Source of the DNA: Flavobacterium sp.
GTDB lineage: Bacteria; Bacteroidota; Bacteroidia; Flavobacteriales; Flavobacteriaceae
DNA length: 64,000 bases
NCBI RefSeq assembly: GCF_035456085.1
Contig: NZ_DATIDY010000040.1
Coordinates: forward strand, 7,609-71,608
Direction: 5' to 3'
Numbering within the stretch: the stretch's first letter is position 1; the number at the start of each line of letters is the position of its first letter. Position numbers and translations under genes: made by a program. Below, in pieces: positions 32,901 to 44,671 of this stretch. The notes beneath the pieces are model-generated. The model was not told the DNA's origin, made no database searches, and saw only the letters and a program-made list of their open reading frames with translations.

Positions 32901-33440
32901 TATAAAAAAGCAGTTTATAATGAAAAAGACAAGCAGTTTTTAGGCGATAAAACTCCTCCTGTACAGTGGTCGTTGCGAAATGAGTTTAAGATTTATAAAA
33001 ATTGGGATCTTACTATAAATATGTATTCTAATATGGGTCAAAAATCACTTAATTCAAGCTATGTGAATACTTTCAACGATAGTAGTTTGTATAAGTTCAA
33101 CTTCAATCCATATGTAAATCCATATTGGACACTTGACAACCCAACCAATGATTGGGCGCGTCTTGATGGTAAGGGTCCTGCTGGAACTCCAGCTGCACCA
33201 GGGAAATTGTATGACCGTAGTTTTATCCGTCTTGACAATATTTCGTTGGCCTACTCTTTTCCAAAAGATCTTACAACAAAACTAAAAATTAAAAATTTAA
33301 AAATTTATACTTCGGTTCAAAACGTAGCAACATGGTGTGCTTCTAAAGAATGGAAATATTATGGAGATCCAGAAGGAGATACTGATAACGGGGGATTGGC
33401 CACACGAATGTTTAATTTAGGTTTGAATGTACAACTTTAA
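29985..33440 (+). CDS. SusC/RagA TonB-linked outer membrane transporter (start may be 30051)
   Basis: CarboxypepD_reg-like N-terminus, EEVVVVGYG, DLTGA, PLIILDG, INPDDI..LKDAASASVYGAKAAAGVIVISTKKG, NPNLEWEKT, FNLGLNVQL. Confidence 0.95.
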   Translation: MTKCDGDFKKTNLFNNQKLQSRMTNFTRIKKDTDCVSGFNLKKKVMIFCLLLSLSQIHGYAISSKSTDVSKDLQLRKEIKGQVNDENGIPLAGVNVLEKGTKNAALTDFDGKFTLTVDNENSVLELSYLGYITKEVILKGETSITVKLQKATTSLEEVVVVGYGKMKKKDLTGAIVQITPDKLANQNPQTVQDILRGVPGLKVGYDASAKGGGKMQIRGQTSVYNPNNDGVHNSPLIILDGMQFYGELSEINPDDIGQIDILKDAASASVYGAKAAAGVIVISTKKGKTGKPIISLTTNTTVNTKSAYRTVYSPEGYLKYREDWETAATYGPNTTTGQYEAWISGTVANGKPGYFSNPNDLTKWGITEAQWLAYQPATQTAGKSVKEVWGTRLGLNFDPSLMANFLAGKTQNWNDLSFRTGINHDNNLSISGAGDKVNYYMSFGYLTAQGAIVGNDYKAARANMKIDAKITDWLDFGANVNFQDRSDGDITPSLGTRSGDNNMLRTSPFGTLKDANGNYERQPMGKNVSGQNYNYYYERQFIEKETGYVTLNSIFNTKVTLPLGITYTFNISPRYQFYHDRYFKSTANPNNPPATNGANRNNNMRFDYSLNNTLAWDYTFAEKHHFVATFVQEAEERRYWSDGMDAYNILPSDALGFHNVDTATMANSKLRSEDTHQTADALMARLFYSFDNRYMLTASIRRDGYSAFGASNPYAVFPSLAVAWNFKNENWINWDAMSAGKLRLSWGENGNRSLNDPYISLSNLVSNGTMGYLDASGKALEMKYLSLDRMANPNLEWEKTGAVNIGLDLGFLNNRISATVDLYKTATHDMIMSQALPGFTGFSSIATNLGEVQNKGFEITISTVNMTKPNFEWRTGLGISYNNNTIISLYGNMVDIKDANGNVIGQKEGDDSNNGWFIGKSITEIWDYKVSGIWQKDEWKEAERYGQRPGDPKVENSYTGDDVDAVDRDGVAYKKAVYNEKDKQFLGDKTPPVQWSLRNEFKIYKNWDLTINMYSNMGQKSLNSSYVNTFNDSSLYKFNFNPYVNPYWTLDNPTNDWARLDGKGPAGTPAAPGKLYDRSFIRLDNISLAYSFPKDLTTKLKIKNLKIYTSVQNVATWCASKEWKYYGDPEGDTDNGGLATRMFNLGLNVQL

Positions 33441-33453
33441 AGATTACTCAAAA

Positions 33454-35466
33454 ATGAAAAAATATATAAAAAATAAAATTTCAAGACTGGTGCCTTTGGC
33501 AGTATTGGCCGCTATGTCTGTTTCTTGTTCCAAAGATTTTCTTGAAGCAGATCCTCTTTCATTTTATAAACCTGAAAATACATTTAACACCGAAGCTGGG
33601 TTGCAGGCAACATTAGCACTATGCGATAAACAGCTTCGTAATAATTATGTTCATTATAATTTTTCTGGTGTTAGTGTTCCTATTGGTACTGAGTATCTTT
33701 TTTCTGATATGGCGCAATATGGAAAAACGGATACGAATGGTAGTATTGCTGATTATGCTAATACTATCGTTCCTTCTGCCGGTACAGATGTGTTCCGAAG
33801 AGATGCAGGTGGTGAGTCAATTTATCTTGGGTTTCTTTGGACTGAAGCCTATACAGGGATTAAGAATGCTAATACCATATTAACGTATATTGGTGATGTG
33901 AAAAGTTTATCCGAGGATGTTAAAAATAAATATATTGGACAAGCTTATTTTCATAGAGCTTACCGCTATCTTAATCTTGTGTATGAATTTGGAGACATAC
34001 CATTGATTACTAAAATTTTGGAAGTTCCAAAGCAGAGTTATTACTCTACTAAAAAAGAAGCCATCATAGAAATGATTACAGCTGATATGGAGAAAGCTGT
34101 ACAATGGGTACCAGACCAATCAAAAATTGGGTATGTAGGTATGGTTAGTAAAGGAGCATGCCGTCAGTTACTGATTAAGTGTTATTTGGCGTCGGGCAGA
34201 TTTGCTGATGCTGAAGCACAAGCAAACATTCTTATTAATCAATCAGGTTACTCTTTGGTGCAAAACAATTTGGGAATTTTTGATCCGGGAGGAAATCCTA
34301 CGGCATGGCCTATTACCAGAAATGTGATCTGGGATTTACACAGACCTGAAAACAAAGTTATAGGTTCTAATACTGAAGCTATATTGGTTGCACCAAATGG
34401 AGGAGCACAATCATTTTTAGCATTTGCTTCGATGAGAATTTTTGGGCCTAACTGGAATGATGCTAATTTAATTACTCCTGATGGTAAGACTGCAGCACCT
34501 CGTTTCCCATTGACTGATAAAACTAATTATAATGCAAAATATGATTATCAAAGAGCATTAGGACGCGGTATTGGTACCATAAGTGCTTCTTATTATTCAC
34601 AACATCCTATGTGGGTTGTAAACGGTGTTGAGGATAATCAAGATCTTAGACATAATAGCACTGTCGGTAACTGGGTGCATATGAAAGATCTAAAATATGC
34701 TTCTGGTGCAGGTGGTAGTGTTACATGGGCTGGACAAAATTTTAGAATGAAAGATGCAAATGGAAAACTGTTAGCATTGGATTCTATTCGTGATTGGTTT
34801 GATTTTCCTCATTATAAAATCTTTTATCATGATGTTGTAGCTGAAACCACCCCAACTGCTAATGATTTTCAGGGAGCTACTGCTGGAGCCAGTGCACATA
34901 TGTACATATATCGTTTGGCTGAGACCTATCTATTACGTGCAGAAGCTCGTTTTTATCAAGGGAATGTTGCAGGTGCAGCTCAGGATGTGAATGTTGTAAG
35001 AACAAGAGCAAAAGCTTCACAAATGTATACCACTGTAACTATTGGTGATATTTGTGCTGAAAGAGGAAGAGAACTTTATCTAGAAGAATGGAGAAATGTG
35101 GAGTTAAAACGTATTTCGCACTGTCTCGCTCTTAGCGGAAAACCGGATGAATGGGGTAATATTTACAGCAAAACCAATTGGGATAAGCAATCTGGAAGAG
35201 ATGCATCTGGAGGCAGTTATTGGTGGCAACGTATTGTGCATTATACCCTTTACAACAAATATCCAGCTGGTATTTCTATTAAACCAGGTGTAAAGTTTTA
35301 TACTATGGATAAGCGTAATAATTACTGGCCAATTCCATACAAACTTGCTATAGAACCTAATATTAATGGACAATTAAGTCAAAACTTTGGGTACGATGGT
35401 TATGATGCGAATGTGAAGGTTTGGACTAAATGGCAGGATGCTGTTGAAGATGAAAGCAAAATTTAA
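33454..35466 (+). CDS. RagB/SusD nutrient-binding lipoprotein
   Basis: Lipobox SVSC-SKDFLE, GQAYFHRAYRYLNLV..FGDIPL, YRLAETYLLRAEA, ERGRELYLE, WPIP. Confidence 0.95.
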   Translation: MKKYIKNKISRLVPLAVLAAMSVSCSKDFLEADPLSFYKPENTFNTEAGLQATLALCDKQLRNNYVHYNFSGVSVPIGTEYLFSDMAQYGKTDTNGSIADYANTIVPSAGTDVFRRDAGGESIYLGFLWTEAYTGIKNANTILTYIGDVKSLSEDVKNKYIGQAYFHRAYRYLNLVYEFGDIPLITKILEVPKQSYYSTKKEAIIEMITADMEKAVQWVPDQSKIGYVGMVSKGACRQLLIKCYLASGRFADAEAQANILINQSGYSLVQNNLGIFDPGGNPTAWPITRNVIWDLHRPENKVIGSNTEAILVAPNGGAQSFLAFASMRIFGPNWNDANLITPDGKTAAPRFPLTDKTNYNAKYDYQRALGRGIGTISASYYSQHPMWVVNGVEDNQDLRHNSTVGNWVHMKDLKYASGAGGSVTWAGQNFRMKDANGKLLALDSIRDWFDFPHYKIFYHDVVAETTPTANDFQGATAGASAHMYIYRLAETYLLRAEARFYQGNVAGAAQDVNVVRTRAKASQMYTTVTIGDICAERGRELYLEEWRNVELKRISHCLALSGKPDEWGNIYSKTNWDKQSGRDASGGSYWWQRIVHYTLYNKYPAGISIKPGVKFYTMDKRNNYWPIPYKLAIEPNINGQLSQNFGYDGYDANVKVWTKWQDAVEDESKI

Positions 35467-35546
35467 GCCGCTTTTAAATAAATTATTCAAATTAATTGAG
35501 CGCTTAAGGCTAAACCATTAAGCTATACACTTAGCTTTTACATACT

Positions 35547-35597
35547 AAAAATCCCTAACAATCAAGATTTAAATTCTGTTTGTTAGGGATTTTTTTT
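35547..35597. terminator. Bidirectional terminator between the SusD and CHRD genes
   Basis: AAAAATCCCTAACAA...TTGTTAGGGATTTTT arms. Confidence 0.7.
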
Positions 35598-35674
35598 AAA
35601 TAAAAAGTATATCATCTTACATTCGTTTGAATTAAAGAGGTCATTTTAATAACATTTTTTTGTTTTGTTTGCTA

Positions 35675-36148
35675 TTAATATGGACCACCTCCTCCTCCAC
35701 CAGTTCCGGTAGTTGAGCCTTTCATAAGTATTCCGCTGATTTCTCCACCAGGATTACTTGTGGTATGTAAGTTAACATAATAATGATTAGCCATAAGCTC
35801 CAAAATTTGAGCATCAGTTATAGTACCAGTAACAGTAAATGGTGAGGTTGCAATAGTTGCATCAGGAAAAGGAATTACAACTGCTCCATCGGCTCCATGA
35901 ATATGACCATGGGTCGGTGTTAGTCCTGTGTAAGTTACGGTAATTTCAAATGTTTTTTTGGTTTGATTTAATTTAAGTACTGCAGTTCCAGATGCTGATG
36001 AAGTGACACCAGTTGCAGCGGACAAAGTAGCATTAAAAACAGTAATGACATCAGTTGGAGGATTTGTATCCTCATTATCATCATTGGAGCACGAAGGAGT
36101 TATCAAAACAAGAAAAAACATTGCGGGAATAATTAATAATCGTTTCAT
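35675..36148 (-). CDS. CHRD domain lipoprotein
   Basis: Lipobox TPSC, SASGTA, YTGL.PT.GHIH and YYVNLHTTSNPGGEISG. Confidence 0.88.
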   Translation of the reverse strand: MKRLLIIPAMFFLVLITPSCSNDDNEDTNPPTDVITVFNATLSAATGVTSSASGTAVLKLNQTKKTFEITVTYTGLTPTHGHIHGADGAVVIPFPDATIATSPFTVTGTITDAQILELMANHYYVNLHTTSNPGGEISGILMKGSTTGTGGGGGGPY

Positions 36149-36295: not shown

Positions 36296-36697
36296 CTATA
36301 CTCCAACATTCAAATTAAAATGTTGCAAAATTTGTTTGGGCGGCATTATTACTTCTTTACAAGCATTGTCAAACCACTCTACTTCTATCGTTACTTCTGC
36401 ACAATGTTCTCTTTTGGAATTTAAAAAGTAACTTTTAATACTGATTTTATTATCTATATAACATTGTTTCAACTCAACCGAAAAGCGTTCGGTAAACATT
36501 AGATCTTTATAACAAACTAATGCTTGATTTTTTTCCTGCAAACCTAAATTCAAAATGTTGAGTTTCTCTTTAGAAAATCCTTTATCAAACAAAAAATGAT
36601 ATAATAATCGAAGTGTGTATGAAATATAGGCTTTGCTTTCCATTACCATATAATCATTCACATCTTCTCCGGTAACACTATAGTTTTTACTGAACAT
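36296..36697 (-). CDS. Hotdog-fold thioesterase-like protein (degenerate)
   Basis: VTGEDVNDYMVM...Y and YKDLMFTERFSVEL resemble the 4HBT/YbgC fold. Confidence 0.55.
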   Translation of the reverse strand: MFSKNYSVTGEDVNDYMVMESKAYISYTLRLLYHFLFDKGFSKEKLNILNLGLQEKNQALVCYKDLMFTERFSVELKQCYIDNKISIKSYFLNSKREHCAEVTIEVEWFDNACKEVIMPPKQILQHFNLNVGV

Positions 36698-36792: not shown

Positions 36793-37347
36793 TTATTTAA
36801 CCAATAAAAAATTGTAATTGATTTTCACTTTGTCCGCCACTTTTTGTCTGACAATGCTTGGAATTTTAATATCAAAATCTTCAGGTTTTACTTCAAAGGA
36901 ACCTATAATAGTAATCCCATTTGCAACTTTAGAAGCTCTCACAATTACTGCTAACGGCTGTATTTTTCCATGTATGGTAAGCTCACCTTTTAAATTAAAA
37001 TCTTTAGAGATGTTTGTGATTTTTGAAATATCAAAATCTTCAATTTTACCTTTTAGAGTTGCTTTTGGAAACTTTTCAGATTCCATATAGTTTTCATTGA
37101 AATGTTCTTCCATTAGAGCAACTTTAAACCGAAAACCTTTTACAAGAACCAAAGCAGCAAAATCTCCAGTTGATGATTCCAAAACCGCCGAAACACTTTT
37201 GCTTTCTGCTGCCACTTCTTCATACCCTGGCACAGAAGCCTGAAATTTTATAGTTCCCGTTTTTGTTATTAATTTTTGGGCAAAACCATTTGTATGTACA
37301 GCAGCAATCAACAGTATCAGAAAGATTTTTAGAACTGATTTTTTCAT
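36793..37347 (-). CDS. YceI family protein
   Basis: Signal peptide, TGTIKF, LMEEHFNENYMESEKFPKATLKG, GELTIHG, FDIKIP. Confidence 0.9.
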   Translation of the reverse strand: MKKSVLKIFLILLIAAVHTNGFAQKLITKTGTIKFQASVPGYEEVAAESKSVSAVLESSTGDFAALVLVKGFRFKVALMEEHFNENYMESEKFPKATLKGKIEDFDISKITNISKDFNLKGELTIHGKIQPLAVIVRASKVANGITIIGSFEVKPEDFDIKIPSIVRQKVADKVKINYNFLLVK

Positions 37348-37352
37348 CACTA

Positions 37353-37730
37353 TTAATTTTTTAATCCATCTGTATTCCATTTTAGAATCAAATCAATATT
37401 GGCTTGAGACATTCTTCCAGTTTTAGGCATAAGACCTTCCTGACCATTTTGCAACTGAATTCTATCTAATAATTGTGCGGTTTGTACAGCTGCTTTTACT
37501 TCAGCATATGTAGTTAGTGGTCTGAAAGATGCAGCCCCTCCACTTTTGTGACAACCTATACAATTAGCATCAATAACTGCTTTTACATCTTTGGTATAAG
37601 TTATTATCGATGGGTCAGTTATAGGTGGCGTAACAGTTTCTGGTGGTGTTGAGATATCGTCATAGGTATCAGAATTACTACAACTTGCTAATGAGGCTAA
37701 TAAAATTGTGAGTGCGATTGCTTTTTTCAT
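37353..37730 (-). CDS. c-type cytochrome lipoprotein
   Basis: Lipobox LASC, ITYTKDVKAVIDANCIGCH (CxxCH), distal LMP (possible Met ligand), LILKW. Confidence 0.8.
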   Translation of the reverse strand: MKKAIALTILLASLASCSNSDTYDDISTPPETVTPPITDPSIITYTKDVKAVIDANCIGCHKSGGAASFRPLTTYAEVKAAVQTAQLLDRIQLQNGQEGLMPKTGRMSQANIDLILKWNTDGLKN

Positions 37731-37750
37731 CGTGTATATATTTATAGTTA

Positions 37751-38593
37751 TTAAAATACTCTGTATATGTTAAATCCGAAGAAGAAATCTCCTTTACCCC
37801 AATTTCCGGCTGCATTTGTGAGATACCCGCTTTCGCTCATGGATTGTGAATTGGTAAATAATAATTGAAAAACATGCCCTCCAGTTTCAATATCCAAACC
37901 TACTGACAATGGATTTTCATAAAAACTAGGTTGATCAAAATTGTACATATATTCTAAGTTTACGGACAGCCTCTTAGTGATTTTATAGCGTCCTCCCCCA
38001 CCAAACGAAAACTGATTATCATTTTCTAAAGCTGGATCGTAAAGATTTCTATGTATAAAAGAAGGGATCACTTCTAATGATAATTTTTTATTGACTTTTC
38101 TTGAAATCAACAACTGTTGAATGCCTATATTCCGATGCTTAAATTCTAAACCCGGATATTGATCCGTGTCTAGAAATGTGTTGATATCCCACACACTATA
38201 CCCAACAATATCCAGAGGAAAATTATCGTCTTGTCTCATCAATCGGTATTTCAGTCCGATTTCGTACATTTTGTTTAATGTATGTCTGGAAAGGCTAACA
38301 GACAACCAATCGGTAATTCCGTAAATACCACCCAATTTTGTAGTCGCATTATCAAGACCAAAAAAGCCATCCAAACCATCCTTGACAGAACCGAAACGAT
38401 GTGATATCACAAAATAGAACTCCTTTTTGGCTGGTAATTTTGTGGATTGTAATGTTACCAATTGCAAAGCTTTGAAAGTGGCTGTTGCATAGCTGTCTTC
38501 TACCTGCGTAGAATCAATACTTTTGAGTAAATCATCTTGGGAATACGCTATCGTGGCCAAGAAAATACAGACTGTGACAAATAATTTCTTCAT
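37751..38593 (-). CDS. DUF5777 family beta-barrel protein
   Basis: ATFKALQLVTLQSTK, ISHRFGSV..FFGLD, GLDIETGGHVFQLLFTNS, FGFNIYRVF (C-terminal Phe). Confidence 0.85.
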   Translation of the reverse strand: MKKLFVTVCIFLATIAYSQDDLLKSIDSTQVEDSYATATFKALQLVTLQSTKLPAKKEFYFVISHRFGSVKDGLDGFFGLDNATTKLGGIYGITDWLSVSLSRHTLNKMYEIGLKYRLMRQDDNFPLDIVGYSVWDINTFLDTDQYPGLEFKHRNIGIQQLLISRKVNKKLSLEVIPSFIHRNLYDPALENDNQFSFGGGGRYKITKRLSVNLEYMYNFDQPSFYENPLSVGLDIETGGHVFQLLFTNSQSMSESGYLTNAAGNWGKGDFFFGFNIYRVF

Positions 38594-38600
38594 AAATTCA

Positions 38601-38999
38601 TTAATTGTTTTGTTTACTAATAATGCATTGATCCAATTTAACTTCCTGAAATAAATCATCGTAACCGATACATTTTCCTTTAATGGTTACTATATTGTTT
38701 TTAGGAATATTTTTTATTTTTTTAGTAAAAAGACAGAAAACTGTATTTTCAAGAATAAGTACCGAATCTGTTTTTTTGGTTATTAGTCCCGTTATTTCAA
38801 TAGTTTTATTGAGATAAACTAAATCCGCTTCTTTCGGATTTGCATCATACTCTTTAAGTAAAGTTGTTGCTGTAATGTTGGAATCAGGCATTTCTAAGGC
38901 TATATTGCGTGCTTCTTTAAAAACAACTCCGTAATACAGATAAATACCTACGGAAATCATTAATAACAAGACGATTACAAAAACTATTGATTTTTTCAT
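38601..38999 (-). CDS. Membrane-anchored OB-fold protein (tRNA_anti-like)
   Basis: N-terminal TM, A..L...Y..N...AD..YLNK.IEITG, VTIKGKCIGYD. Confidence 0.8.
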   Translation of the reverse strand: MKKSIVFVIVLLLMISVGIYLYYGVVFKEARNIALEMPDSNITATTLLKEYDANPKEADLVYLNKTIEITGLITKKTDSVLILENTVFCLFTKKIKNIPKNNIVTIKGKCIGYDDLFQEVKLDQCIISKQNN

Positions 39000-39025: not shown

Positions 39026-39054
39026 TAAAACAGTCTTGTAGTAGATTACCCTAC
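39026..39054 (-). promoter_or_regulatory. Putative ECF sigma promoter, copy A
   Basis: Minus strand GTAGGGTA-atctactacaagac-TGTTTTA, 27 nt before the 38999 start. Confidence 0.75.
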
Positions 39055-39100: not shown

Positions 39101-39185
39101 TGACACGAATTACACGAATTAGCACGAATTGATTGTTTTTAAAAATTTCACAAATCAATTAATGGAATTATGTATAATCGAGTCA
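39101..39185. repeat. CACGAATT tandem repeat with a decayed inverted arm
   Basis: CACGAATT at 39104, 39113 and 39123; a related reversed unit lies at 43548-43567. Confidence 0.55.
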
Positions 39186-39190
39186 TACTT

Positions 39191-39352
39191 CACAATCTGG
39201 TCATTCTGACGAAGGATGAATCCCAGTGCCGTATATCCATATCGTATTTCCATCATCTAATAGTAAGAATTACAAAACTATTTTGATATTGATGAATTAC
39301 TTTGTCGAGCTACTTGCGGAGATTCTTCCTTCGTCAGAATGACAAGATTGTG
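39191..39352. mobile_element. REP-doublet/MITE-like element with about 34-bp imperfect inverted arms
   Basis: CACAATCTGGTCATTCTGACGAAGGATGAATCCC (39191-39224) vs GGAGATTCTTCCTTCGTCAGAATGACAAGATTGTG (39318-39352). Confidence 0.7.
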
Positions 39353-39396: not shown

Positions 39397-41928
39397 TTAA
39401 AATGAAGCTCTAAAACTCACATTTGGAGTTCTTCGGAGTGCGAAAGTTTCGACTTGTTCGATAGAATTTGTTATTGAGCTGATTCTGTAATATTCGCCTA
39501 TTGCATTCTTTCTGTTAAGGATATTTAAGATAGAAACCCCTATTTTGAATTGATTTCCATTTGCCGTTTCCCACTTGTAAGTCGATGAGAAATTAATTTG
39601 AGCAAAAATATTGATATTGGTATTATTGGGTTTATTATAAATCAAAGTAGGATTCGAAAGGTCAATTTGCGAATTATCAGGAGTCGTGGTAGGTTTTCCG
39701 GAGGACCATTTTGCACCCAAAGCAATTTTGAAATTGTTCTTTTCATAAATTCCTGCCCAAGATAAAGTGTGAGTCAACTCAAAGTTGTTTGGAAAAGTCG
39801 GAGGTATATAATTGGAAAAATTATAATTATTGTTATTGTAGGTATAACTAAACCAGGTCAGGAAGGAGTTAATTTTTTTCTGAACAAGCATTTCTGTCCC
39901 AAAAACTTCGTAATCGCCTGCCATTCGGATAAACTCTAATTGGTTTTGAAAACCTTGGCTTGAAGTCGTAATTCCGCTTACTTTTTTATAAAAATTCTCT
40001 ATGTCTAACAACCAATCATTCTTTTGGTAGATTAGATTTAAAGATAGCTGTTTACTTCTTTGAATAGGAATTGTGGAGTCATTTGAGATAATCCAACGCC
40101 TTTTTTCAATGCCAAAATAATCTTTTTGCAAATCAATAATTTGTTGAGAATTTTGGCTTTTTAATTCGCCCAAAAGTTCTAAATTCAAGCTTTTACTAAC
40201 TCCATAAACCAGTTGCACGCGCGGTTCTACAATGTACTTTTTAAATTTTTCGATATAATTAATTCGGGTTCCGACTTTAGCATACATTCTGGATAGTGTG
40301 TCATTGTATTTTCCTTCCAAAATTAATGCATGAGTTCTCAAAACATCTTTGACTTTGCGGTAGAATTGAGGAGTATTTACCTGCTCAAAATTTGTAATCC
40401 CAATTTCGTCAAATTGATATCCATTGTTAAAACTCAATTTAGGGCTCAGAATATGATTGTTTTCTAAATTTACTCCATTATTATTTACTTTATTTTCCTG
40501 AACAGCTACTTGGTCATTGACAGTGCTGTTTTGATTAGCCAGAAGTTCATAGGAAGAATTATAGATATTAATTTTGGTCGAATTGAAGCTGTTCCAGTCT
40601 CTTTTCCAAGACAGATTTCCGCCATAATTTTGTTGTTGCAACGTATTGTTTTCCGTTTTGTATGTGTCGTCTGAAGTGGCGCTTTGAAAAACTTCCAGAT
40701 TGTCTTTTATTGTTATTAAATCTAATACTAGCTGGTCTTTGTTTCCTATTTTTTGCGCAAATTTTAATGTTGCATCATAAAAATCAAATTTTTTATCGCT
40801 TTTATAATCAATATTTTGCGGAAGCGAAAAATCAGTAATGGTAGTGTTTTGAAATACTTTATTAAAATATTCTTTGTATGTAGGAGTTTCTACAAAATCT
40901 GTGATGGATTTACGAGCTGAAATTTCGATATAATTTTTTTTCGAAAGATTGTATTTGCCATAAATATCAGCATTAATCATATTGATTCCTGCACTAAAAG
41001 AGTTCTTTTCCGGTATTTCGGGAGTAGATGAGATAGCAACTACGCTCGAAACACTTTCGCCATAAAAAGCAGAACTTCCGCTTTTATAAATAGAAATCGT
41101 GTGCGCCAAATTGGGATTAAAGACTGATATTAAACCAAAAAAATGTCCCGTTTGGTACATTCGTATTCCATTCCATAAAAACAAATTTTGATCATGTGTA
41201 CCACCACGAACATTAATGCTTGAAACACTTTCGTCAATACTGTTTACACCAGGAATTTGTTGCATGGTTTGTAATGCATCTGGCTCAATAAGTCCAGGCA
41301 AAATACCAAATTTCTTAGGTTTGATTTCAAATGAACCATCTTGTTTTTTTGAAATACCCGAAGCCAAGATTGCATTGGTTTTAATTTCTTCTAGTTCGGT
41401 TATTTCTGGTTCTAAAATTATTTCGAGACAATCGGAGTCTGAATTATCCACTTCAATTCTTTGGGATTTGAATCCTACATGGCTAATCAAAAGTGTATTT
41501 TGATCTTCTTTTTTAAATTCAAAATATCCTTTTGGATCAGTTGTAATTTGTGATTTATCATTCAAATTAATATTTACGTTTTCGATAGGTTTTTTATCAG
41601 AAATGGAAAAAACGTAACCACAAATTGTTTCCGTGTGATTTTCTTTTTTATAAATATTAATGAATTTGTTATCTAGATTTTCAAAAGACAAATTAGTTTT
41701 TCTGGCAAGATATTCGAGTTTTTGCTCTAGAGAAAGTGTTTTTTTGGGTGGAATTAATTGCAGTCCGGCAATTGTATTTTCGGTATAATTGAAAGTAACC
41801 TGATGTTGTTTTTCAATATCGTTTATGATTTTTTTGAAAGGCACAAGTTTCCCCGAGTCCTGGGCAGAAAGATGCAGAACACAGAAAAATATAAAAAGCA
41901 AAAAACGAAATCGTTTGGGGAGCAACAT
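39397..41928 (-). CDS. TonB-dependent receptor with N-terminal signalling-like domain (FecA-type)
   Basis: STN-like N-terminus, CarboxypepD_reg-like domain, plug (LPG..EPD..QTMQQIPGV, NVRGG..DQNL), C-terminal Phe. Confidence 0.9.
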   Translation of the reverse strand: MLLPKRFRFLLFIFFCVLHLSAQDSGKLVPFKKIINDIEKQHQVTFNYTENTIAGLQLIPPKKTLSLEQKLEYLARKTNLSFENLDNKFINIYKKENHTETICGYVFSISDKKPIENVNINLNDKSQITTDPKGYFEFKKEDQNTLLISHVGFKSQRIEVDNSDSDCLEIILEPEITELEEIKTNAILASGISKKQDGSFEIKPKKFGILPGLIEPDALQTMQQIPGVNSIDESVSSINVRGGTHDQNLFLWNGIRMYQTGHFFGLISVFNPNLAHTISIYKSGSSAFYGESVSSVVAISSTPEIPEKNSFSAGINMINADIYGKYNLSKKNYIEISARKSITDFVETPTYKEYFNKVFQNTTITDFSLPQNIDYKSDKKFDFYDATLKFAQKIGNKDQLVLDLITIKDNLEVFQSATSDDTYKTENNTLQQQNYGGNLSWKRDWNSFNSTKINIYNSSYELLANQNSTVNDQVAVQENKVNNNGVNLENNHILSPKLSFNNGYQFDEIGITNFEQVNTPQFYRKVKDVLRTHALILEGKYNDTLSRMYAKVGTRINYIEKFKKYIVEPRVQLVYGVSKSLNLELLGELKSQNSQQIIDLQKDYFGIEKRRWIISNDSTIPIQRSKQLSLNLIYQKNDWLLDIENFYKKVSGITTSSQGFQNQLEFIRMAGDYEVFGTEMLVQKKINSFLTWFSYTYNNNNYNFSNYIPPTFPNNFELTHTLSWAGIYEKNNFKIALGAKWSSGKPTTTPDNSQIDLSNPTLIYNKPNNTNINIFAQINFSSTYKWETANGNQFKIGVSILNILNRKNAIGEYYRISSITNSIEQVETFALRRTPNVSFRASF

Positions 41929-42828
41929 TTATTTTTCTTCAAAAATTATTTTGTCTTTTGAAACTTTTTTTGCTTCTAAATGATAAGTTGTACTGATAAT
42001 TTGCAAAGCCACATCTAGATCTTTACTTGGCAATTTTCCAGTGAATAACGAAACTGTATCTTTTGCTTTCAATTCGACTTCGATATTATATTGTCTTTCA
42101 ACTTCATCTAATAAAGTTCTGATGTTTTCTCTGGAAAAACTGATTTGATTGTCTATCCATTCTGGTCTTGCTGAATTGATAAGCATTTTAACTTGTTTTC
42201 CATTTTCAAAACTAACACCTTGTCCGTGAGTCAATAGAATTTGAAAGTTTGAATAATTCACCTTAACACGACCTTCATAACACACAACATCAAACCTGTT
42301 TTTTCGGGTTTTGACATTAAATTGCGTTCCTAAAACAGAAACTTTTCCAAGGCTGGTTTGTACTTCAAAACGTCTGCCTTTTGCAACTTTGAAATAAGCT
42401 TCTCCTTTAAGTTCTAAACGCCGATTGTTATCCCAATTCCATTTTTTATACTGAATTTCAGAGCCTGAATTTAGCACCACTTCCGAATTATCAGGTAATA
42501 AAAACATTGTTTTTTCTCCAAAGTTTGCTGTTTCTGTTTGTGCCACTAAAACCTTCAAAGCATATGTAATTCCAAGCGCCAGAACCAAAACAGCTACTGC
42601 TTGAAAAATCCATTTTTTGTATAAAGGAACGACTTTGACAGGCTTTTTTTCCTGTTTGAGAATATTAAATAACATGGCATTTTCATCCAAATCATCTACT
42701 TCTAAATGATCTGTATATGCTTTTATTTTTTGGTATTTCTCAAAATCAGGACTTGCTCTAAATTCAACTAATTCAGCCTCCGATAAATCGTTGTCGAGCC
42801 ATTTTGCTAATAAGCGATTCTTTTTCAT
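41929..42828 (-). CDS. FecR family anti-sigma factor
   Basis: TM helix, LPDNSEVVLNSGS, LKGEAYFKV, VLGTQFNV, VCYEGRV, VERQYNI. Confidence 0.93.
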   Translation of the reverse strand: MKKNRLLAKWLDNDLSEAELVEFRASPDFEKYQKIKAYTDHLEVDDLDENAMLFNILKQEKKPVKVVPLYKKWIFQAVAVLVLALGITYALKVLVAQTETANFGEKTMFLLPDNSEVVLNSGSEIQYKKWNWDNNRRLELKGEAYFKVAKGRRFEVQTSLGKVSVLGTQFNVKTRKNRFDVVCYEGRVKVNYSNFQILLTHGQGVSFENGKQVKMLINSARPEWIDNQISFSRENIRTLLDEVERQYNIEVELKAKDTVSLFTGKLPSKDLDVALQIISTTYHLEAKKVSKDKIIFEEK

Positions 42829-42847: not shown

Positions 42848-42876
42848 TAAAACAATTGAAACTCCTTGTACCCTAC
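42848..42876 (-). promoter_or_regulatory. Putative ECF sigma promoter, copy B
   Basis: Minus strand GTAGGGTA-caaggagtttcaat-TGTTTTA, between the sigma stop and the fecR start. Confidence 0.75.
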
Positions 42877-42878
42877 TT

Positions 42879-43394
42879 TTATAACTCTACCTCTTTGCGC
42901 AAACTCAGCAAAGCCAAATGAATTCGTTTTTCTACTGCCTTTACGCTAATATTAAGCTCTGAGGCAATTTCGCTGTATTTTTTTCCATCAATTCGATGCA
43001 TCAAAAAGGCAACTCGCTGTTTTTCGTTTAAATTTTCAATAGCTTTCAAAAGCTTTGCTTGATACTGTTTCTCTTCCAAAATATATTCGGGGCTTTCATT
43101 GGTTTTATCCAAACCTGTGAAGTTTTTTTCATACCTCAAAACAACTTTTTGATGTGCAATTTCATTAAGACTGCTATTGTTTGCAATCGTATAAATATAT
43201 GATTTCGCCTTATCTAATGGCACCGAAGCACAGTTTTGCCAAAGTTTTATAAATGCTTCTTGTGCCAAATCCTCGGCTCGACCAATATTGCCGTATTTGT
43301 AAAAAAGAAAATTCCGAAGTGATTTTACATGACTTTTAAAAAAAGACGAGAAAATAACTTCGTCACAAGTATTTGATTGGTTTTTATCTGGCAT
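42879..43394 (-). CDS. ECF-subfamily RNA polymerase sigma factor
   Basis: Region 2 (AEDLAQEAFIKLW, YIYTIANN) and region 4 (RVAFLMHRIDGKKYSEIA..LNISVKAVEKRI). Confidence 0.94.
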   Translation of the reverse strand: MPDKNQSNTCDEVIFSSFFKSHVKSLRNFLFYKYGNIGRAEDLAQEAFIKLWQNCASVPLDKAKSYIYTIANNSSLNEIAHQKVVLRYEKNFTGLDKTNESPEYILEEKQYQAKLLKAIENLNEKQRVAFLMHRIDGKKYSEIASELNISVKAVEKRIHLALLSLRKEVEL

Positions 43395-43433: not shown

Positions 43434-43462
43434 GTAGGGTAAAAATCAAGCTGAATGTTTTA
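43434..43462 (+). promoter_or_regulatory. Putative ECF sigma promoter, copy C
   Basis: GTAGGGTA-aaaatcaagctgaa-TGTTTTA, pointing towards the 43652 gene. Confidence 0.7.
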
Positions 43463-43651
43463 TTAGAGTGTCTGGACATTGGTTTATTTCAAACAAACAA
43501 GAACAGATAATTGGTTTAAATTTATTTTGCAATTATAGCAATAGCGTAAATTCTTGTAATTCGTGGCAACAAAACAACTTAAACCCTTGATGTCAAATTT
43601 ATTAAAAAAAACAATTTCTTTTAATTTTATTACATTTGTAAAAATATAAAT

Positions 43652-44671
43652 ATGTCCCCTTTAACAAAATATTTATCAATAGTCATGATTTTGTTCTTAT
43701 TCTCCTGCCAAAACGAGATGGAAGAACAGAGTTATAATGCACCGGAAACCGTTACAAATACTTCTCCGCTGACTTCGTATTTGCAAAGAGTTTCAATGGT
43801 AAAAACGGTTCAGGATAATGTGATTGACGGATCTACTTATTGTACCATTAAACTCCCTTATACAGTTACTGTCAATAATGCTAAAATTGCCGTAAACACT
43901 ACCGCCGATTACCAGAAAGTACAAGACAATATCAATGCAAATAGCTATGACGATGATATTGTAAAAATAGATTTTCCTGTAACTATGGTCTACTACAATT
44001 ACATCGAAAAACCAATTCCAAATCAAGCTGATTTTGATGCTTTAATTGATTATTGGAATCTTTACCCTGATCTTTTATACAAAATCAATGGGTTGAACAT
44101 CAATTATCCAATAACAATTGATACTTACAATAGTGCCAATCAATTCGCAAGTTCAACATCCATTGTGAGTGATCAGGCTTTTTTTAATTTTATAAAAAAC
44201 CTGAACAGTAGTCAGTACATTTCGTTAAAATATCCAATCACCGTTGTTGACTACAATAATCAAACAAAAATAATTGCAAACAATTCCGATTTCGAAGATG
44301 CTATCGAATATGCAATTAAATACTGTCCAGAAAACAACATTGTCACACTTGATTTTGTAAGTGCAATAACAAATGGCACATGGAAAATCCCTTATTTTTT
44401 CTTTGATACAGACCAAACTTCTTCCTATAGTGGCTATTCATTTGTTTTTAAAAATGACTATTCTGTTGTTGCTACCAAAGGAACGATTTCGGAAACTGGT
44501 CAATGGGAAACTAAAGTAAACAATGGTGTTAGGGAAGTAAAATTAAGTTTCAATTCAGACGTACTCAAAAAGTTGAATAATAACTGGGATGTCTACGAAT
44601 TTAATAATTCGCATATACGATTGCGAAATGAAGGCGGTAGTACTGCTAGTTATCTTTATTTTGAGAAATGA
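43652..44671 (+). CDS. Lipoprotein with internal [FY]P[IVY]T repeats and a C-terminal lipocalin-like beta domain
   Basis: Lipobox LFSC; four repeats (LPYTV, FPVTM, YPITI, YPITV); GTWKI..F, GQW, WDV. Confidence 0.75.
   Translation: MSPLTKYLSIVMILFLFSCQNEMEEQSYNAPETVTNTSPLTSYLQRVSMVKTVQDNVIDGSTYCTIKLPYTVTVNNAKIAVNTTADYQKVQDNINANSYDDDIVKIDFPVTMVYYNYIEKPIPNQADFDALIDYWNLYPDLLYKINGLNINYPITIDTYNSANQFASSTSIVSDQAFFNFIKNLNSSQYISLKYPITVVDYNNQTKIIANNSDFEDAIEYAIKYCPENNIVTLDFVSAITNGTWKIPYFFFDTDQTSSYSGYSFVFKNDYSVVATKGTISETGQWETKVNNGVREVKLSFNSDVLKKLNNNWDVYEFNNSHIRLRNEGGSTASYLYFEK

What the first reader, a model, noticed from the sequence alone, without database searches (positions are those of the whole stretch)
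36793..38999. OB-fold + DUF5777 barrel + c-type cytochrome lipoprotein + YceI operon: an unexplained envelope system
Seen: four tightly packed minus-strand genes, namely a membrane-anchored OB-fold protein, a DUF5777 outer-membrane barrel, a lipoprotein with CIGCH and a distal Met, and a secreted YceI. They sit behind ECF promoter copy A. Established: YceI proteins bind polyisoprenoid or other hydrophobic ligands, and CxxCH binds heme c covalently. Inference: a signal-induced module for outer-membrane electron transfer or for uptake or redox handling of a hydrophobic ligand (quinone, heme or pigment). I know no described function for this combination.
Basis: partly seen in the sequence, partly recalled or inferred. 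Interest (0 to 1): 0.62.

Follow-up and report, generated by a model that had tools for sequence, protein, structure and literature searches.

The report
Signal-switched outer-membrane cytochrome-barrel-YceI module
A soil Flavobacterium carries a never-studied four-gene envelope unit (small outer-membrane barrel, lipid-anchored one-haem cytochrome, lipid-binding YceI protein, membrane-anchored OB-fold protein) that recurs across the phylum Bacteroidota, probably does redox chemistry at the outer membrane, and here sits under a cell-surface signalling switch that makes it easy to test.

Summary
Four tightly packed minus-strand genes (gaps of 7, 20 and 5 nt) encode an inner-membrane-anchored OB-fold protein, a DUF5777 barrel modelled with 12 strands, a lipoprotein with CIGCH plus a conserved Met-Pro, and a secreted YceI.

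The barrel, cytochrome and YceI are co-conserved phylum-wide. DUF5777 is present in 166 of 401 Bacteroidota genomes. The cytochrome and YceI are each adjacent in 77 of 81 related loci, and in 19 and 15 of 20 loci from distant families.

Three distant lineages fuse the cytochrome domain to the N-terminus of the barrel. One lineage has a Tat-Rieske lipoprotein in its place.

The motif GTAGGGTA(A/C)-N13-TGTTTTA occurs three times in the 4.34 Mb genome: in front of this operon, of FecR-TonB receptor and of a lipoprotein gene (p339). The same layout is kept in relatives. The module is therefore the main target of an ECF sigma / FecR / TonB-transducer switch.

Best reading (about 0.45): a split cytochrome-porin that works like Cyc2 but is not a member of that family. 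YceI may act as a lipid or quinone carrier. The function is inferred, not shown. No paper mentions DUF5777.

The parts
43434..43462 (+). ECF-type promoter copy in front of the p339 lipoprotein gene (GTAGGGTAA-N13-TGTTTTA)
   Evidence: One of only two strict matches in the whole genome. The same position is kept in relatives.
43652..44671 (+). p339: lipoprotein (LFSC lipobox) with no Pfam family; the C-terminal ~95 residues are modelled as a lipocalin-like 8-strand barrel; a member of the ECF regulon
   Evidence: 367 homologues; all those that carry a source name are from Flavobacterium or Flavobacteriaceae. AF2 pLDDT 75.7. Weak lipocalin/DUF4847 fold hits, E 1e-3 to 1e-2. It lies 5-7 kb from the barrel in 9 of 11 genomes that hold a close orthologue. 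It is the first gene of the module operon in two other genera (L147, L149).
42879..43394 (-). ECF sigma factor (FecI-like, Bacteroidetes type)
   Evidence: Sigma70_r2 and r4_2. TIGR02985 at 117.7 bits, below its 126.4 cut-off; TIGR02937 sigma70-ECF superfamily above its cut-off.
42848..42876 (-). ECF-type promoter copy (GTAGGGTAC-N13-TGTTTTA), 3 nt after the sigma stop codon and 19 nt before the FecR ATG
   Evidence: conserved in relatives.
41929..42828 (-). FecR-like anti-sigma factor
   Evidence: FecR and FecR_C domains.
39397..41928 (-). TonB-dependent receptor with an N-terminal extension (probable signalling domain), a CarboxypepD_reg domain and a Plug; abuts the FecR gene
   Evidence: The N-terminal 107 aa match STN (E 0.024) and FecR_C (E 0.0015), both below threshold. 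No curated TonB-receptor subfamily and no PDB relative by sequence.
39026..39054 (-). ECF-type promoter 'copy A', 26 nt before the OB ATG
   Evidence: An equivalent copy stands before the first gene of the module in L033-L037, L041, L057, L069, L077, L132-L143.
38601..38999 (-). Inner-membrane-anchored periplasmic OB-fold protein (tRNA_anti-like)
   Evidence: PF12869, E 1.8e-14. Its profile hits PDB 3f1z, E 0.0045. Present in 52 of 81 related loci. Conserved residues are G71, K107, G108, G112, D114, D123 and C125; no conserved His or Tyr.
37751..38593 (-). DUF5777 outer-membrane barrel: signal peptide, 12 strands, C-terminal Phe
   Evidence: PF19089, 287.5 bits. AF2 pLDDT 87.9 with 12 strands. 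Best PDB folds are NanC/KdgM/FapF/COG4313/Tsx, TMq about 0.5. F40, H65, F67, G79, D81, P126, P177, H240, F242, G273, F274 and R278 are at least 95% conserved in 134 barrels. Single copy in the genome.
37353..37730 (-). Lipoprotein monohaem c-type cytochrome (CIGCH, distal Met-Pro)
   Evidence: In distant families the motif is CX4CH, with Met-Pro kept. A cytochrome c synthase (system II type) is present in the genome.
36793..37347 (-). Secreted YceI-family protein
   Evidence: PF04264, 54.3 bits. Its profile hits the solved YceI structures 5ixh, 5ixg, 1y0g and 3hpe. One of 13 YceI paralogues in the genome.
36296..36697 (-). Possible fifth gene: small cytoplasmic hotdog/thioesterase-like protein
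   Evidence: Weak 4HBT_2 hit, E 0.0023. It follows YceI in the closest relatives. No terminator-like fold in the 95 nt spacer.
35675..36148 (-). Possible sixth gene: CHRD-domain lipoprotein
   Evidence: PF07452, E 1.7e-21. Not found at this position in any relative. No strong terminator lies before it.
35536..35605 (.). Strong hairpin followed by a U run: the first convincing terminator downstream of the module on the minus strand
   Evidence: I2. Folds at -27.3 kcal/mol, z -5.35.

Best explanation
The four genes are one copy of a phylum-wide Bacteroidota envelope module. Its constant core is a 12-stranded outer-membrane barrel (DUF5777), a one-haem c-type cytochrome lipoprotein and a YceI lipid binder.

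Regulation (well supported): in this Flavobacterium clade the module is the main output of a cell-surface signalling switch.
- An unknown ligand on the TonB-dependent transducer releases the ECF sigma from the FecR-like anti-sigma factor.
- The sigma then fires three promoters that exist nowhere else in the genome. They drive the p339 lipoprotein gene, FecR-receptor, and the OB-barrel-cytochrome-YceI operon.

Mechanism of the module (inferred):
- It is a split cytochrome-porin. The haem domain sits at the periplasmic mouth of the barrel.
- A small redox-active solute that enters the narrow pore from outside can therefore exchange one electron with the haem. The fused cytochrome-porin Cyc2 is thought to work this way.

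Roles of the other two proteins (inferred, weakest step):
- YceI carries a lipophilic cofactor, most plausibly the isoprenoid quinone, between the inner membrane and the outer-membrane cytochrome.
- The membrane-anchored OB-fold protein may serve as its inner-membrane partner.
For: Operon anatomy and domains.

Co-conservation:
- Cytochrome and YceI are each next to the barrel in 77 of 81 related loci.
- Within 1.5 kb in a phylum-wide set of 30 loci, YceI is found in 28 and the cytochrome in 25.
- In 20 loci from distant families, the cytochrome is adjacent or fused in 19 and YceI is adjacent in 15.

Haem signature:
- C, C, H, M and P are at least 95% conserved.
- The motif is CX2CH or CX4CH across the phylum.
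- A cytochrome c synthase is present in the genome.

Physical coupling and topology: three lineages encode the module's cytochrome domain fused to the N-terminus of the barrel, which is the periplasmic end. The fused domain scores 84-90 bits against the module cytochrome profile.

Redox theme:
- A Tat-Rieske lipoprotein stands in the cytochrome's place in L123.
- T9SS-secreted CxxCH (Temptin_C) proteins, a NirK-like enzyme, ApbE and Crp/Fnr regulators lie next to the module elsewhere.

Barrel:
- The model is confident and has 12 strands.
- Fold relatives are small specific channels.
- Two histidines, an Asp and an Arg are conserved phylum-wide.

Regulation:
- Motif counts in the genome.
- The motif sits at the same three places in relatives, and after gene rearrangements.
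- p339 orthologues lie next to the barrel in 9 of 11 genomes.

Comparison with Cyc2: its architecture and its proposed periplasmic haem plug are taken from PMC8406198.
Against: - No experiment exists, and RNA reads were not available.
- Haem attachment is not shown. The Pfam cytochrome score is just under its cut-off (26.6 against 27).
- The Cyc2 signature motifs are absent, and the barrel has a different size and fold class.
- The three fused forms lack a nearby YceI, so YceI is not obligatory. Its quinone-carrier role is a guess.
- The OB-fold gene was not detected in the distant families.
- The redox substrate is unknown. No E. coli-type Fur box was found and the regulon has no importer, so an iron role is not supported.
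- The acidic stretch after the lipid-anchored Cys (CSNSDTYDD) could mean surface export of the cytochrome, which would contradict the periplasmic placement.
Confidence: 0.45

Rival explanations
1. Envelope lipid-radical or oxidant defence, working like the YceI-lipocalin / cytochrome b561 pair (BcnA-LcoA of Burkholderia; yceI-yceJ of E. coli). YceI would bind oxidised or radical-prone lipids or a lipophilic antioxidant. The cytochrome would supply or remove the electron. The barrel would serve the outer membrane.
For: - The YceI profile's best solved relatives are 5ixh and 5ixg. I recall these as the B. cenocepacia BcnA/BcnB lipocalins, but the tool output names them only as YceI-like proteins.
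- BcnA-LcoA-PsrA is an experimentally supported peroxyl-radical detoxification system (PMC9113575).
- Pairing of YceI with a cytochrome is the shared theme.
- Crp/Fnr and HxlR-type regulators stand next to the module in other lineages.
Against: - No cytochrome b561 is in the locus.
- This reading does not explain a dedicated barrel with conserved residues at both mouths, or the cytochrome-barrel fusions that lack YceI.
- Control by a TonB-dependent transducer points to an external ligand rather than to internal damage.
Confidence: 0.2
2. A transport module without electron transfer. The barrel is a channel for a hydrophobic or tetrapyrrole ligand that the TonB receptor and the p339 lipoprotein capture. 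YceI is the periplasmic carrier. The CxxCH protein holds haem as cargo or as a sensor.
For: - Fold relatives of the barrel include channels for specific and hydrophobic solutes: COG4313, Tsx and NanC.
- Two lipocalin-type binders, YceI and the C-terminus of p339, are in one regulon.
- CSS systems classically control uptake (PMC9249621, listed; not read).
Against: - Replacement of the cytochrome by a Rieske iron-sulfur protein, and the neighbouring redox proteins, fit electron transfer better than cargo binding.
- The strict CxxCH plus Met-Pro signature is that of a matured cytochrome.
- No inner-membrane transporter is in the regulon.
Confidence: 0.15
3. The barrel is itself an outer-membrane enzyme or metalloprotein, with conserved H65, D81 and H240 as catalytic or metal-binding residues. 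It would modify a lipid delivered by YceI, and the cytochrome would be its reductant.
For: - Conservation is unusually strict for a porin: H65, D81, H240 and R278 in at least 95% of 134 barrels.
- From my own knowledge, outer-membrane barrel enzymes with His/Asp or His/Ser sites exist (PagP, PagL, OMPLA).
Against: - By strand topology, H65 (upper half of strand 1) and H240 (periplasmic start of strand 11) should be far apart.
- The fold search gave no similarity to known barrel enzymes.
Confidence: 0.08
4. The four genes are neighbours without a common function.
For: Co-transcription has not been measured.
Against: - The gaps are 5-20 nt.
- Adjacency is kept through many rearrangements across the phylum, and domain fusions exist.
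Confidence: 0.02

Closest known systems
Cyc2, the fused monohaem cytochrome-porin Fe(II) oxidase (Acidithiobacillus, Mariprofundus PV-1; PMC8406198)
   Same: One c-type haem domain is coupled to a small outer-membrane barrel, and the haem is placed at the periplasmic end of the barrel. In three Bacteroidota lineages the module's cytochrome is fused to the barrel N-terminus, as in Cyc2.
   Different: - Here the two parts are separate genes, and the cytochrome is a lipoprotein.
- The barrel is DUF5777 with 12 strands (NanC/KdgM-like), not a 16-strand OprO/P-like porin.
- The Cyc2 signature AXPXFAR[Q/K][T/Y] upstream of CXXCH and the PXL downstream are absent.
- The YceI and OB-fold partners are extra.
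- The host is an aerobic heterotroph, and the substrate is unknown.
YceI-cytochrome b561 pairs: BcnA-LcoA(-PsrA) of Burkholderia cenocepacia, yceI-yceJ of E. coli (PMC9113575)
   Same: A secreted YceI-family lipocalin is genetically coupled to a cytochrome in the envelope. The YceI fold family is confirmed.
   Different: The cytochrome here is a c-type lipoprotein, not an inner-membrane b561. A dedicated outer-membrane barrel and an OB-fold anchor are added. Regulation is by cell-surface signalling.
Porin-cytochrome conduits (MtrCAB, MtoAB/PioAB, Pcc)
   Same: A cytochrome paired with an outer-membrane barrel for redox chemistry at the cell surface.
   Different: Those use multihaem (about ten haems) wires threaded through 26-strand barrels (as summarised in PMC8406198). 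Here there is one haem and a 12-strand barrel that cannot hold a protein.
FecI/FecR/FecA-type cell-surface signalling
   Same: An ECF sigma, a FecR-like anti-sigma factor and a TonB-dependent receptor with an N-terminal extension. Target promoters are confined to the locus.
   Different: - The receptor gene is co-transcribed with the anti-sigma gene behind an ECF-type promoter.
- The regulon has no inner-membrane importer.
- No E. coli-type Fur box was found.
- The output is a redox-type envelope module.
- The ligand is unknown.
Cbp2D/Cbp2E of Cellvibrio japonicus and the Saccharophagus X158 domain (from my own knowledge and earlier scan notes; not checked here)
   Same: A YceI-like polyisoprenoid-binding domain is combined with a c-type cytochrome domain outside the cytoplasm.
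   Different: Those are single secreted multidomain proteins tied to polysaccharide oxidation. They have no barrel, no OB-fold partner and no CSS control.

Membership tests
YceI family (PF04264) | Match to the family profile above its curated cut-off | tested here: met
   54.3 bits against a cut-off of 23.7. A profile of 22 orthologues hits the solved YceI structures 5ixh, 5ixg, 1y0g and 3hpe.
YceI family (PF04264) | Binds a polyisoprenoid or other lipophilic ligand in the barrel cavity | not testable with these tools
   Needs purification and LC-MS.
Class I c-type cytochrome | CXXCH haem-attachment motif and a distal axial ligand | tested here: met
   C57, C60, H61, M101 and P102 are at least 95% conserved in 77 orthologues. 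The motif is CX2CH or CX4CH, with Met-Pro kept, in distant families.
Class I c-type cytochrome | Match to a curated cytochrome c profile | tested here: inconclusive
   PF13442 scores 26.6 bits against a cut-off of 27. Matches to c6/c553/c555 chains are weak, E 0.007-0.9.
Class I c-type cytochrome | A cytochrome c maturation system in the same genome | tested here: met
   One PF01578 (CcsA-type) gene at 137.6 bits.
Class I c-type cytochrome | Covalently bound haem | not testable with these tools
   Needs haem staining or mass spectrometry.
DUF5777 (PF19089) | Profile match and a beta-barrel with an outer-membrane targeting end | tested here: met
   287.5 bits. The model has 12 strands at pLDDT 87.9. 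The protein ends in ...YRVF.
tRNA_anti-like OB fold (PF12869) | Profile match above the cut-off | tested here: met
   54 bits against a cut-off of 23.5. The profile hits PDB 3f1z, E 0.0045.
Cyc2 fused cytochrome-porin | Cytochrome and porin in one polypeptide | tested here: not met
   They are separate genes in the window. Fusions exist only in distant lineages L127, L128 and L130.
Cyc2 fused cytochrome-porin | AXPXFAR[Q/K][T/Y] five residues upstream of CXXCH and PXL four residues downstream (PMC8406198) | tested here: not met
   The window sequence reads ...KAVIDANCIGCHKSGGAAS.... The fused forms read ...ELFGRSCVQSGCHAGP....
Cyc2 fused cytochrome-porin | 16-strand OprO/P-like porin | tested here: not met
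   12 strands. The best fold hits are NanC, KdgM and FapF.
Porin-cytochrome conduit (MtrCAB type) | A multihaem cytochrome inside a barrel of more than 20 strands | tested here: not met
   One CxxCH per protein in 75 of 77 orthologues. The barrel has 12 strands.
BcnA-LcoA / yceI-yceJ | YceI gene adjacent to a cytochrome b561 membrane protein gene | tested here: not met
   No b561-type family was found among the neighbours.
Cell-surface signalling (FecIRA type) | ECF sigma plus FecR-like anti-sigma factor | tested here: met
   Sigma70_r2/r4_2; FecR plus FecR_C.
Cell-surface signalling (FecIRA type) | TonB-dependent receptor with an N-terminal signalling (STN) domain | tested here: inconclusive
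   The Plug domain is found. The N-terminal extension matches STN at E 0.024 over the whole profile and FecR_C at E 0.0015, both below the cut-offs.
Cell-surface signalling (FecIRA type) | Sigma-specific promoters in front of the target genes | tested here: met
   Three copies are confined to the locus, with 0.006 strict matches expected. The places are conserved in relatives. Use by this sigma is inferred.
Cell-surface signalling (FecIRA type) | Iron (Fur) control of the sigma gene | tested here: not met
   The best match to the E. coli Fur box in the sigma-p339 spacer has 8 of 19 mismatches. A Flavobacterium-specific Fur box was not modelled.

The most novel reading that the evidence does not exclude
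DUF5777 plus its one-haem lipoprotein would be an independently evolved, split counterpart of Cyc2: a minimal outer-membrane redox gate.

In this reading YceI is a periplasmic electron shuttle. It would ferry menaquinone or menaquinol between the inner-membrane quinone pool, with the OB-fold anchor as loading dock, and the outer-membrane cytochrome.

That would be a lipocalin-borne quinone relay across the periplasm. It would be present in about 40% of Bacteroidota genomes and, in Flavobacterium, switched on by an extracellular ligand.
Probability: 0.15. Interest if true: 0.85.

Novelty: new variant of a known kind. Interest (0 to 1): 0.6.

Why it matters
The module is common. It is found in 166 of 401 sampled Bacteroidota genomes and in 59 of 81 Flavobacterium genomes, yet the searched library holds no paper that mentions its barrel family.

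If it is a one-haem cytochrome-porin unit with a lipid-carrier partner, it would show how non-metal-respiring aerobes do redox chemistry at the outer membrane. It would also give YceI proteins a concrete role.

The ECF switch found here gives a practical handle. In genetically tractable Flavobacterium johnsoniae, which has the same layout (L041), the module could be turned on by overproducing the sigma or deleting the anti-sigma factor. That makes the function directly testable.

Tried and rejected
1. CcmE-like haem chaperone role for the membrane-anchored OB-fold protein. No conserved His or Tyr in 52 orthologues. Dropped.
2. Iron regulation. No E. coli-type Fur box in either spacer. The only literature lead is a 2.2-fold rise of an unrelated-context YceI in iron-limited Riemerella. 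Not supported.
3. Single-sequence PDB searches. Nothing for the receptor or the thioesterase-like protein, and only chance-level hits for the OB-fold protein and YceI.
4. The AATTCGTG tandem repeats near two of the promoters. They are not conserved in relatives, so they are not part of the regulon signal.
5. Homology between the window's CHRD lipoprotein and the T9SS protein that follows YceI in other species. None found (hhalign probability 0.8%).
6. The 'DOMON' label that earlier notes give to that T9SS protein. Pfam and a PDB profile search recognise only its secretion tail. Not confirmed.
7. The p339 fold. Only marginal lipocalin-like matches.
Full report
**Observation**

The four minus-strand ORFs are present.
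- 38601-38999: tRNA_anti-like OB fold, PF12869, E 1.8e-14.
- 37751-38659: DUF5777, PF19089, E 9.5e-86.
- 37353-37730: weak cytochrome c profiles, PF13442 at 26.6 bits against a cut-off of 27.
- 36793-37380: YceI, PF04264, E 2.5e-14.

Reading the sequence gives likelier starts:
- The barrel starts at 38593 (MKKLF..., signal peptide ending AYS|QDD).
- YceI starts at 37347 (MKKSV..., ending FA|QK).

The gaps between the genes are then 7, 20 and 5 nt.

The targeting features are as follows:
- The OB-fold protein has a single N-terminal hydrophobic helix, with no cleavage site or lipobox.
- The cytochrome has the lipobox LLASLASC.
- The barrel ends in Phe.

NCBIfam has no model that names any of the four.

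**Organism and copy number**

The closest public loci are Flavobacterium species of the anhuiense/flavipigmentatum/ginsengiterrae group, with the barrel 80-84% identical. The genome holds one DUF5777 gene and 13 YceI paralogues.

**Co-conservation**

DUF5777 occurs in 166 of 401 sampled Bacteroidota genomes and in none of 14 control genomes, which include Bacteroides thetaiotaomicron. It occurs in 59 of 81 Flavobacterium genomes.

I clustered the proteins of 81 loci with 10 kb flanks: the window plus 80 loci from Flavobacterium, Chryseobacterium, marine Flavobacteriaceae and a few others. Next to the barrel:
- The cytochrome is present in 77 loci.
- YceI is present in 77 loci.
- The OB-fold gene is present in 52 loci.

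In Chryseobacterium a Crp/Fnr-family regulator occupies the place upstream of the barrel.

Gene order varies while the set stays together:
- OB-barrel-cytochrome-YceI in the window's clade.
- Cytochrome-YceI-OB-barrel in marine genera.
- Divergent pairs in others.

Two further samples agree:
- In a phylum-wide set of 30 loci with flanks of only 1.5 kb, YceI is found in 28, the cytochrome in 25 and OB in 13.
- In 20 loci taken from the most distant families that have the barrel, a cytochrome homologue is adjacent or fused in 19 and YceI is adjacent in 15. My profile did not detect the OB-fold gene there.

The invariant core is therefore barrel plus cytochrome plus YceI.

**Is the lipoprotein a cytochrome?**

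- In 77 orthologues C57, C60, H61, M101 and P102 are at least 95% conserved, and 75 of them have exactly one CxxCH.
- In distant families the motif is stretched to C-X4-CH, while the Cys, Cys-His and Met-Pro columns stay aligned.
- The genome has a CcsA-type cytochrome c synthase.
- Sequence similarity to solved c6/c553/c555 chains is weak but covers the whole domain.

This is the signature of a His/Met-ligated monohaem class I cytochrome. Haem attachment itself is not shown.

**Coupling of cytochrome and barrel**

In three distant lineages (L127, L128, L130) the barrel protein is 408-412 residues long. Pfam places DUF5777 at about residues 160-409. The first 160 residues match the module's cytochrome profile at 84-90 bits, with CX4CH and Met-Pro present.

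The N-terminus of an even-stranded outer-membrane barrel lies in the periplasm. These natural fusions therefore place the haem domain at the periplasmic mouth of the barrel.

Other lineages point the same way:
- In L123 a Tat-signal Rieske [2Fe-2S] lipoprotein stands where the cytochrome normally is. One redox carrier has been replaced by a non-homologous one.
- T9SS-secreted Temptin_C proteins with one CxxCH (L118, L120, L121, L124) lie next to the module.
- A NirK-like copper enzyme with a cytochrome c tail (L131) lies next to the module.

Recurrent companions in Flavobacteriales:
- A secreted ankyrin-repeat protein plus a T9SS-secreted protein (34-37 of 81 loci).
- A T9SS DUF2271-like protein with ApbE.
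- A radical SAM enzyme.
- A Lipoprotein_15 (PF03640) protein.
- A small HMA protein.

Regulators differ between lineages: Crp/Fnr, LytTR-Cache, and here an ECF system.

**The barrel**

With a 29-sequence alignment, AlphaFold2 gives a confident model (pLDDT 87.9) with 12 strands and an N-terminal segment before the first strand.

The best PDB fold matches are small specific channels: NanC, KdgM, FapF, the COG4313 channel, Tsx and OmpG. TM-scores normalised to the query are about 0.5, so the fold class is clear but no close relative exists.

In 134 barrels, including the distant ones, F40, H65, F67, G79, D81, P126, P177, G232, G238, H240, F242, G273, F274 and R278 are at least 95% conserved. By strand topology these fall into two patches:
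- HRFG...FFGLD lies towards the outer end of strand 1 and the first loop.
- The ETGGH turn, with R278, lies at the periplasmic rim.

I could not measure distances, because model coordinates are not exposed. Such conservation is unusual for a general porin. It fits a specific site or docking surfaces at both mouths.

**Regulation**

Upstream on the same strand lie an ECF sigma gene (42879-43394), a FecR-like gene (41929-42828) and an 843-residue TonB-dependent receptor gene (39397-41928) that abuts FecR. The receptor's N-terminal extension matches STN and FecR_C only below threshold.

I scanned the whole genome. GTAGGGTAA-N13-TGTTTTA occurs exactly twice, against 0.006 expected:
- At 39026-39054 (minus strand), 26 nt before the OB ATG.
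- At 43434-43462 (plus strand), before the divergent lipoprotein gene p339.

A third copy, with one changed base, lies at 42848-42876 (minus strand). It starts 3 nt after the sigma stop codon and ends 19 nt before the FecR ATG.

The same three places carry the motif in every relative that has the sigma/FecR/receptor set. Further cases:
- In L036 both the Lipoprotein_15 gene and the OB gene have a copy.
- In L069 ApbE also has a copy.
- In L076 the ankyrin gene that opens the operon has a copy.

In two other genera of the family (L147, L149) the order is receptor<FecR<sigma< >p339>OB>T9SS protein>barrel>cytochrome>YceI. There p339 is the first gene of the module operon.

In 81 Flavobacterium genomes, 11 have a p339 orthologue at least 46% identical. 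In 9 of these it lies 5-7 kb from the barrel on the same contig. In the other two, p339 and the barrel lie on different contigs of fragmented assemblies, so adjacency cannot be judged.

This is strong comparative evidence that the module is the principal output of this cell-surface signalling system. That this sigma uses the motif is inferred.

No E. coli-type Fur box is present, and the regulon holds no inner-membrane importer.

**Extent of the transcription unit**

- The spacer after YceI has no terminator-like fold (z 0.5).
- The spacer after the next gene has none either (z -1.5).
- The first strong hairpin with a U run on this strand lies at 35536-35605 (-27.3 kcal/mol, z -5.35).

The thioesterase-like gene (36296-36697) follows YceI in the closest relatives as well. 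The CHRD lipoprotein gene (35675-36148) is unique to this genome at this position. Both may be co-transcribed with the module.

**p339**

- It is a lipoprotein with no Pfam family.
- It has 367 homologues, and all those that carry a source name are from Flavobacterium or Flavobacteriaceae.
- The model (pLDDT 75.7) shows repeated beta-beta-alpha units and a C-terminal 8-strand barrel.
- That barrel gives marginal matches to Bacteroides DUF4847 and lipocalin structures and to lipid-binding lipocalins.

**How it most likely works**

- Shown by sequence and comparison: the gene set, its co-inheritance, the haem signature, the fusions, the barrel fold class, and the locus-restricted promoters.
- Inferred, well supported: the sigma/anti-sigma/receptor system switches the module on in response to an external ligand.
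- Inferred, moderately supported: the cytochrome docks at the periplasmic mouth of the barrel and exchanges electrons with a small solute that enters the pore. This is the logic proposed for Cyc2, a monohaem cytochrome fused to a 16-strand porin with the haem domain as a periplasmic plug (PMC8406198).
- Inferred, weak: YceI carries an isoprenoid quinone or another lipophilic cofactor between the inner membrane and the outer-membrane cytochrome, with the OB-fold protein as its inner-membrane partner.

The fused forms lack a nearby YceI, so YceI is not essential to the core chemistry.

**Comparison with known systems**

- It is not a member of the Cyc2 family. The genes are separate, the Cyc2 motifs are absent, and the barrel is a 12-strand barrel of a different family.
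- It is not an Mtr-type conduit. It has one haem and a small barrel.
- It is not a BcnA-LcoA pair (PMC9113575), because there is no cytochrome b561. The YceI part is a true family member.
- The regulatory part is a FecIRA-type system in architecture.

No paper in the searched library contains 'DUF5777' or 'PF19089'. Searches combining YceI with Flavobacterium terms found nothing on this module.

**Earlier notes of this scan**

Many notes describe the same module in other genomes. They agree on conservation and on a redox reading. The pointer to Cyc2 came from them. I found the fusions independently and tested the Cyc2 motifs here.

**Verdict**

This is a real, tightly organised, phylum-wide and unstudied envelope module. 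In this genome it is placed under a well-defined cell-surface signalling switch. Its function is inferred to be redox chemistry at the outer membrane. The substrate and the roles of YceI and the OB-fold protein are open.

Noticed in passing
window 35675-36148 (-): CHRD-domain lipoprotein (PF07452, E 1.7e-21). It has an acidic stretch after the lipid-anchored Cys (CSNDDNED) and a Gly-rich tail. It lies downstream of the module with no strong terminator before it. No relative has it at this position.
   Followed up: partly
window 36296-36697 (-): A 133-aa cytoplasmic protein with a weak hotdog-thioesterase (4HBT_2) match. It follows YceI in the closest Flavobacterium relatives, so it is a possible fifth gene of the operon.
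   Followed up: partly
window 39191-39352: Inverted repeat with 32-nt arms (GTCATTCTGACGAAGGA...) in the receptor-OB spacer. It belongs to a small dispersed repeat family with at least 8 other partial copies in the genome. Relatives have a Lipoprotein_15 or HxlR gene at this place instead.
   Followed up: partly
window 39104-39132 (-) and 43549-43565 (+): Tandem AATTCGTG repeats upstream of two of the ECF-type promoters. They are not conserved in relatives. A few other copies exist in the genome.
   Followed up: partly
L112-L131 (distant Bacteroidota families): The module's cytochrome uses a stretched C-X4-CH motif in many lineages. In L123 a Tat-Rieske lipoprotein replaces it. In L131 a NirK-like copper enzyme with a cytochrome c tail is the next gene.
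   Followed up: partly
L118, L120, L121, L124: T9SS-secreted proteins with a Temptin_C domain that holds one CxxCH sit beside the barrel. The one in L124 also carries Lipoprotein_15 repeats. That is the family encoded between the receptor and OB genes in the window's relatives.
   Followed up: no
L043-L064 (Chryseobacterium): The module lies directly downstream of rpoB-rpoC and a DUF3467 gene. A Crp/Fnr-family regulator stands immediately before the barrel, and no OB-fold gene is present.
   Followed up: no
whole genome (G000): There are thirteen YceI-family genes in one 4.3 Mb genome. The one in the module is among the most divergent (54.5 bits).
   Followed up: no
window 29985-35466 (+): A SusC-like/SusD-like pair converges on the module region. 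It shares the hairpin at 35536-35605 as a probable two-way terminator.
   Followed up: no
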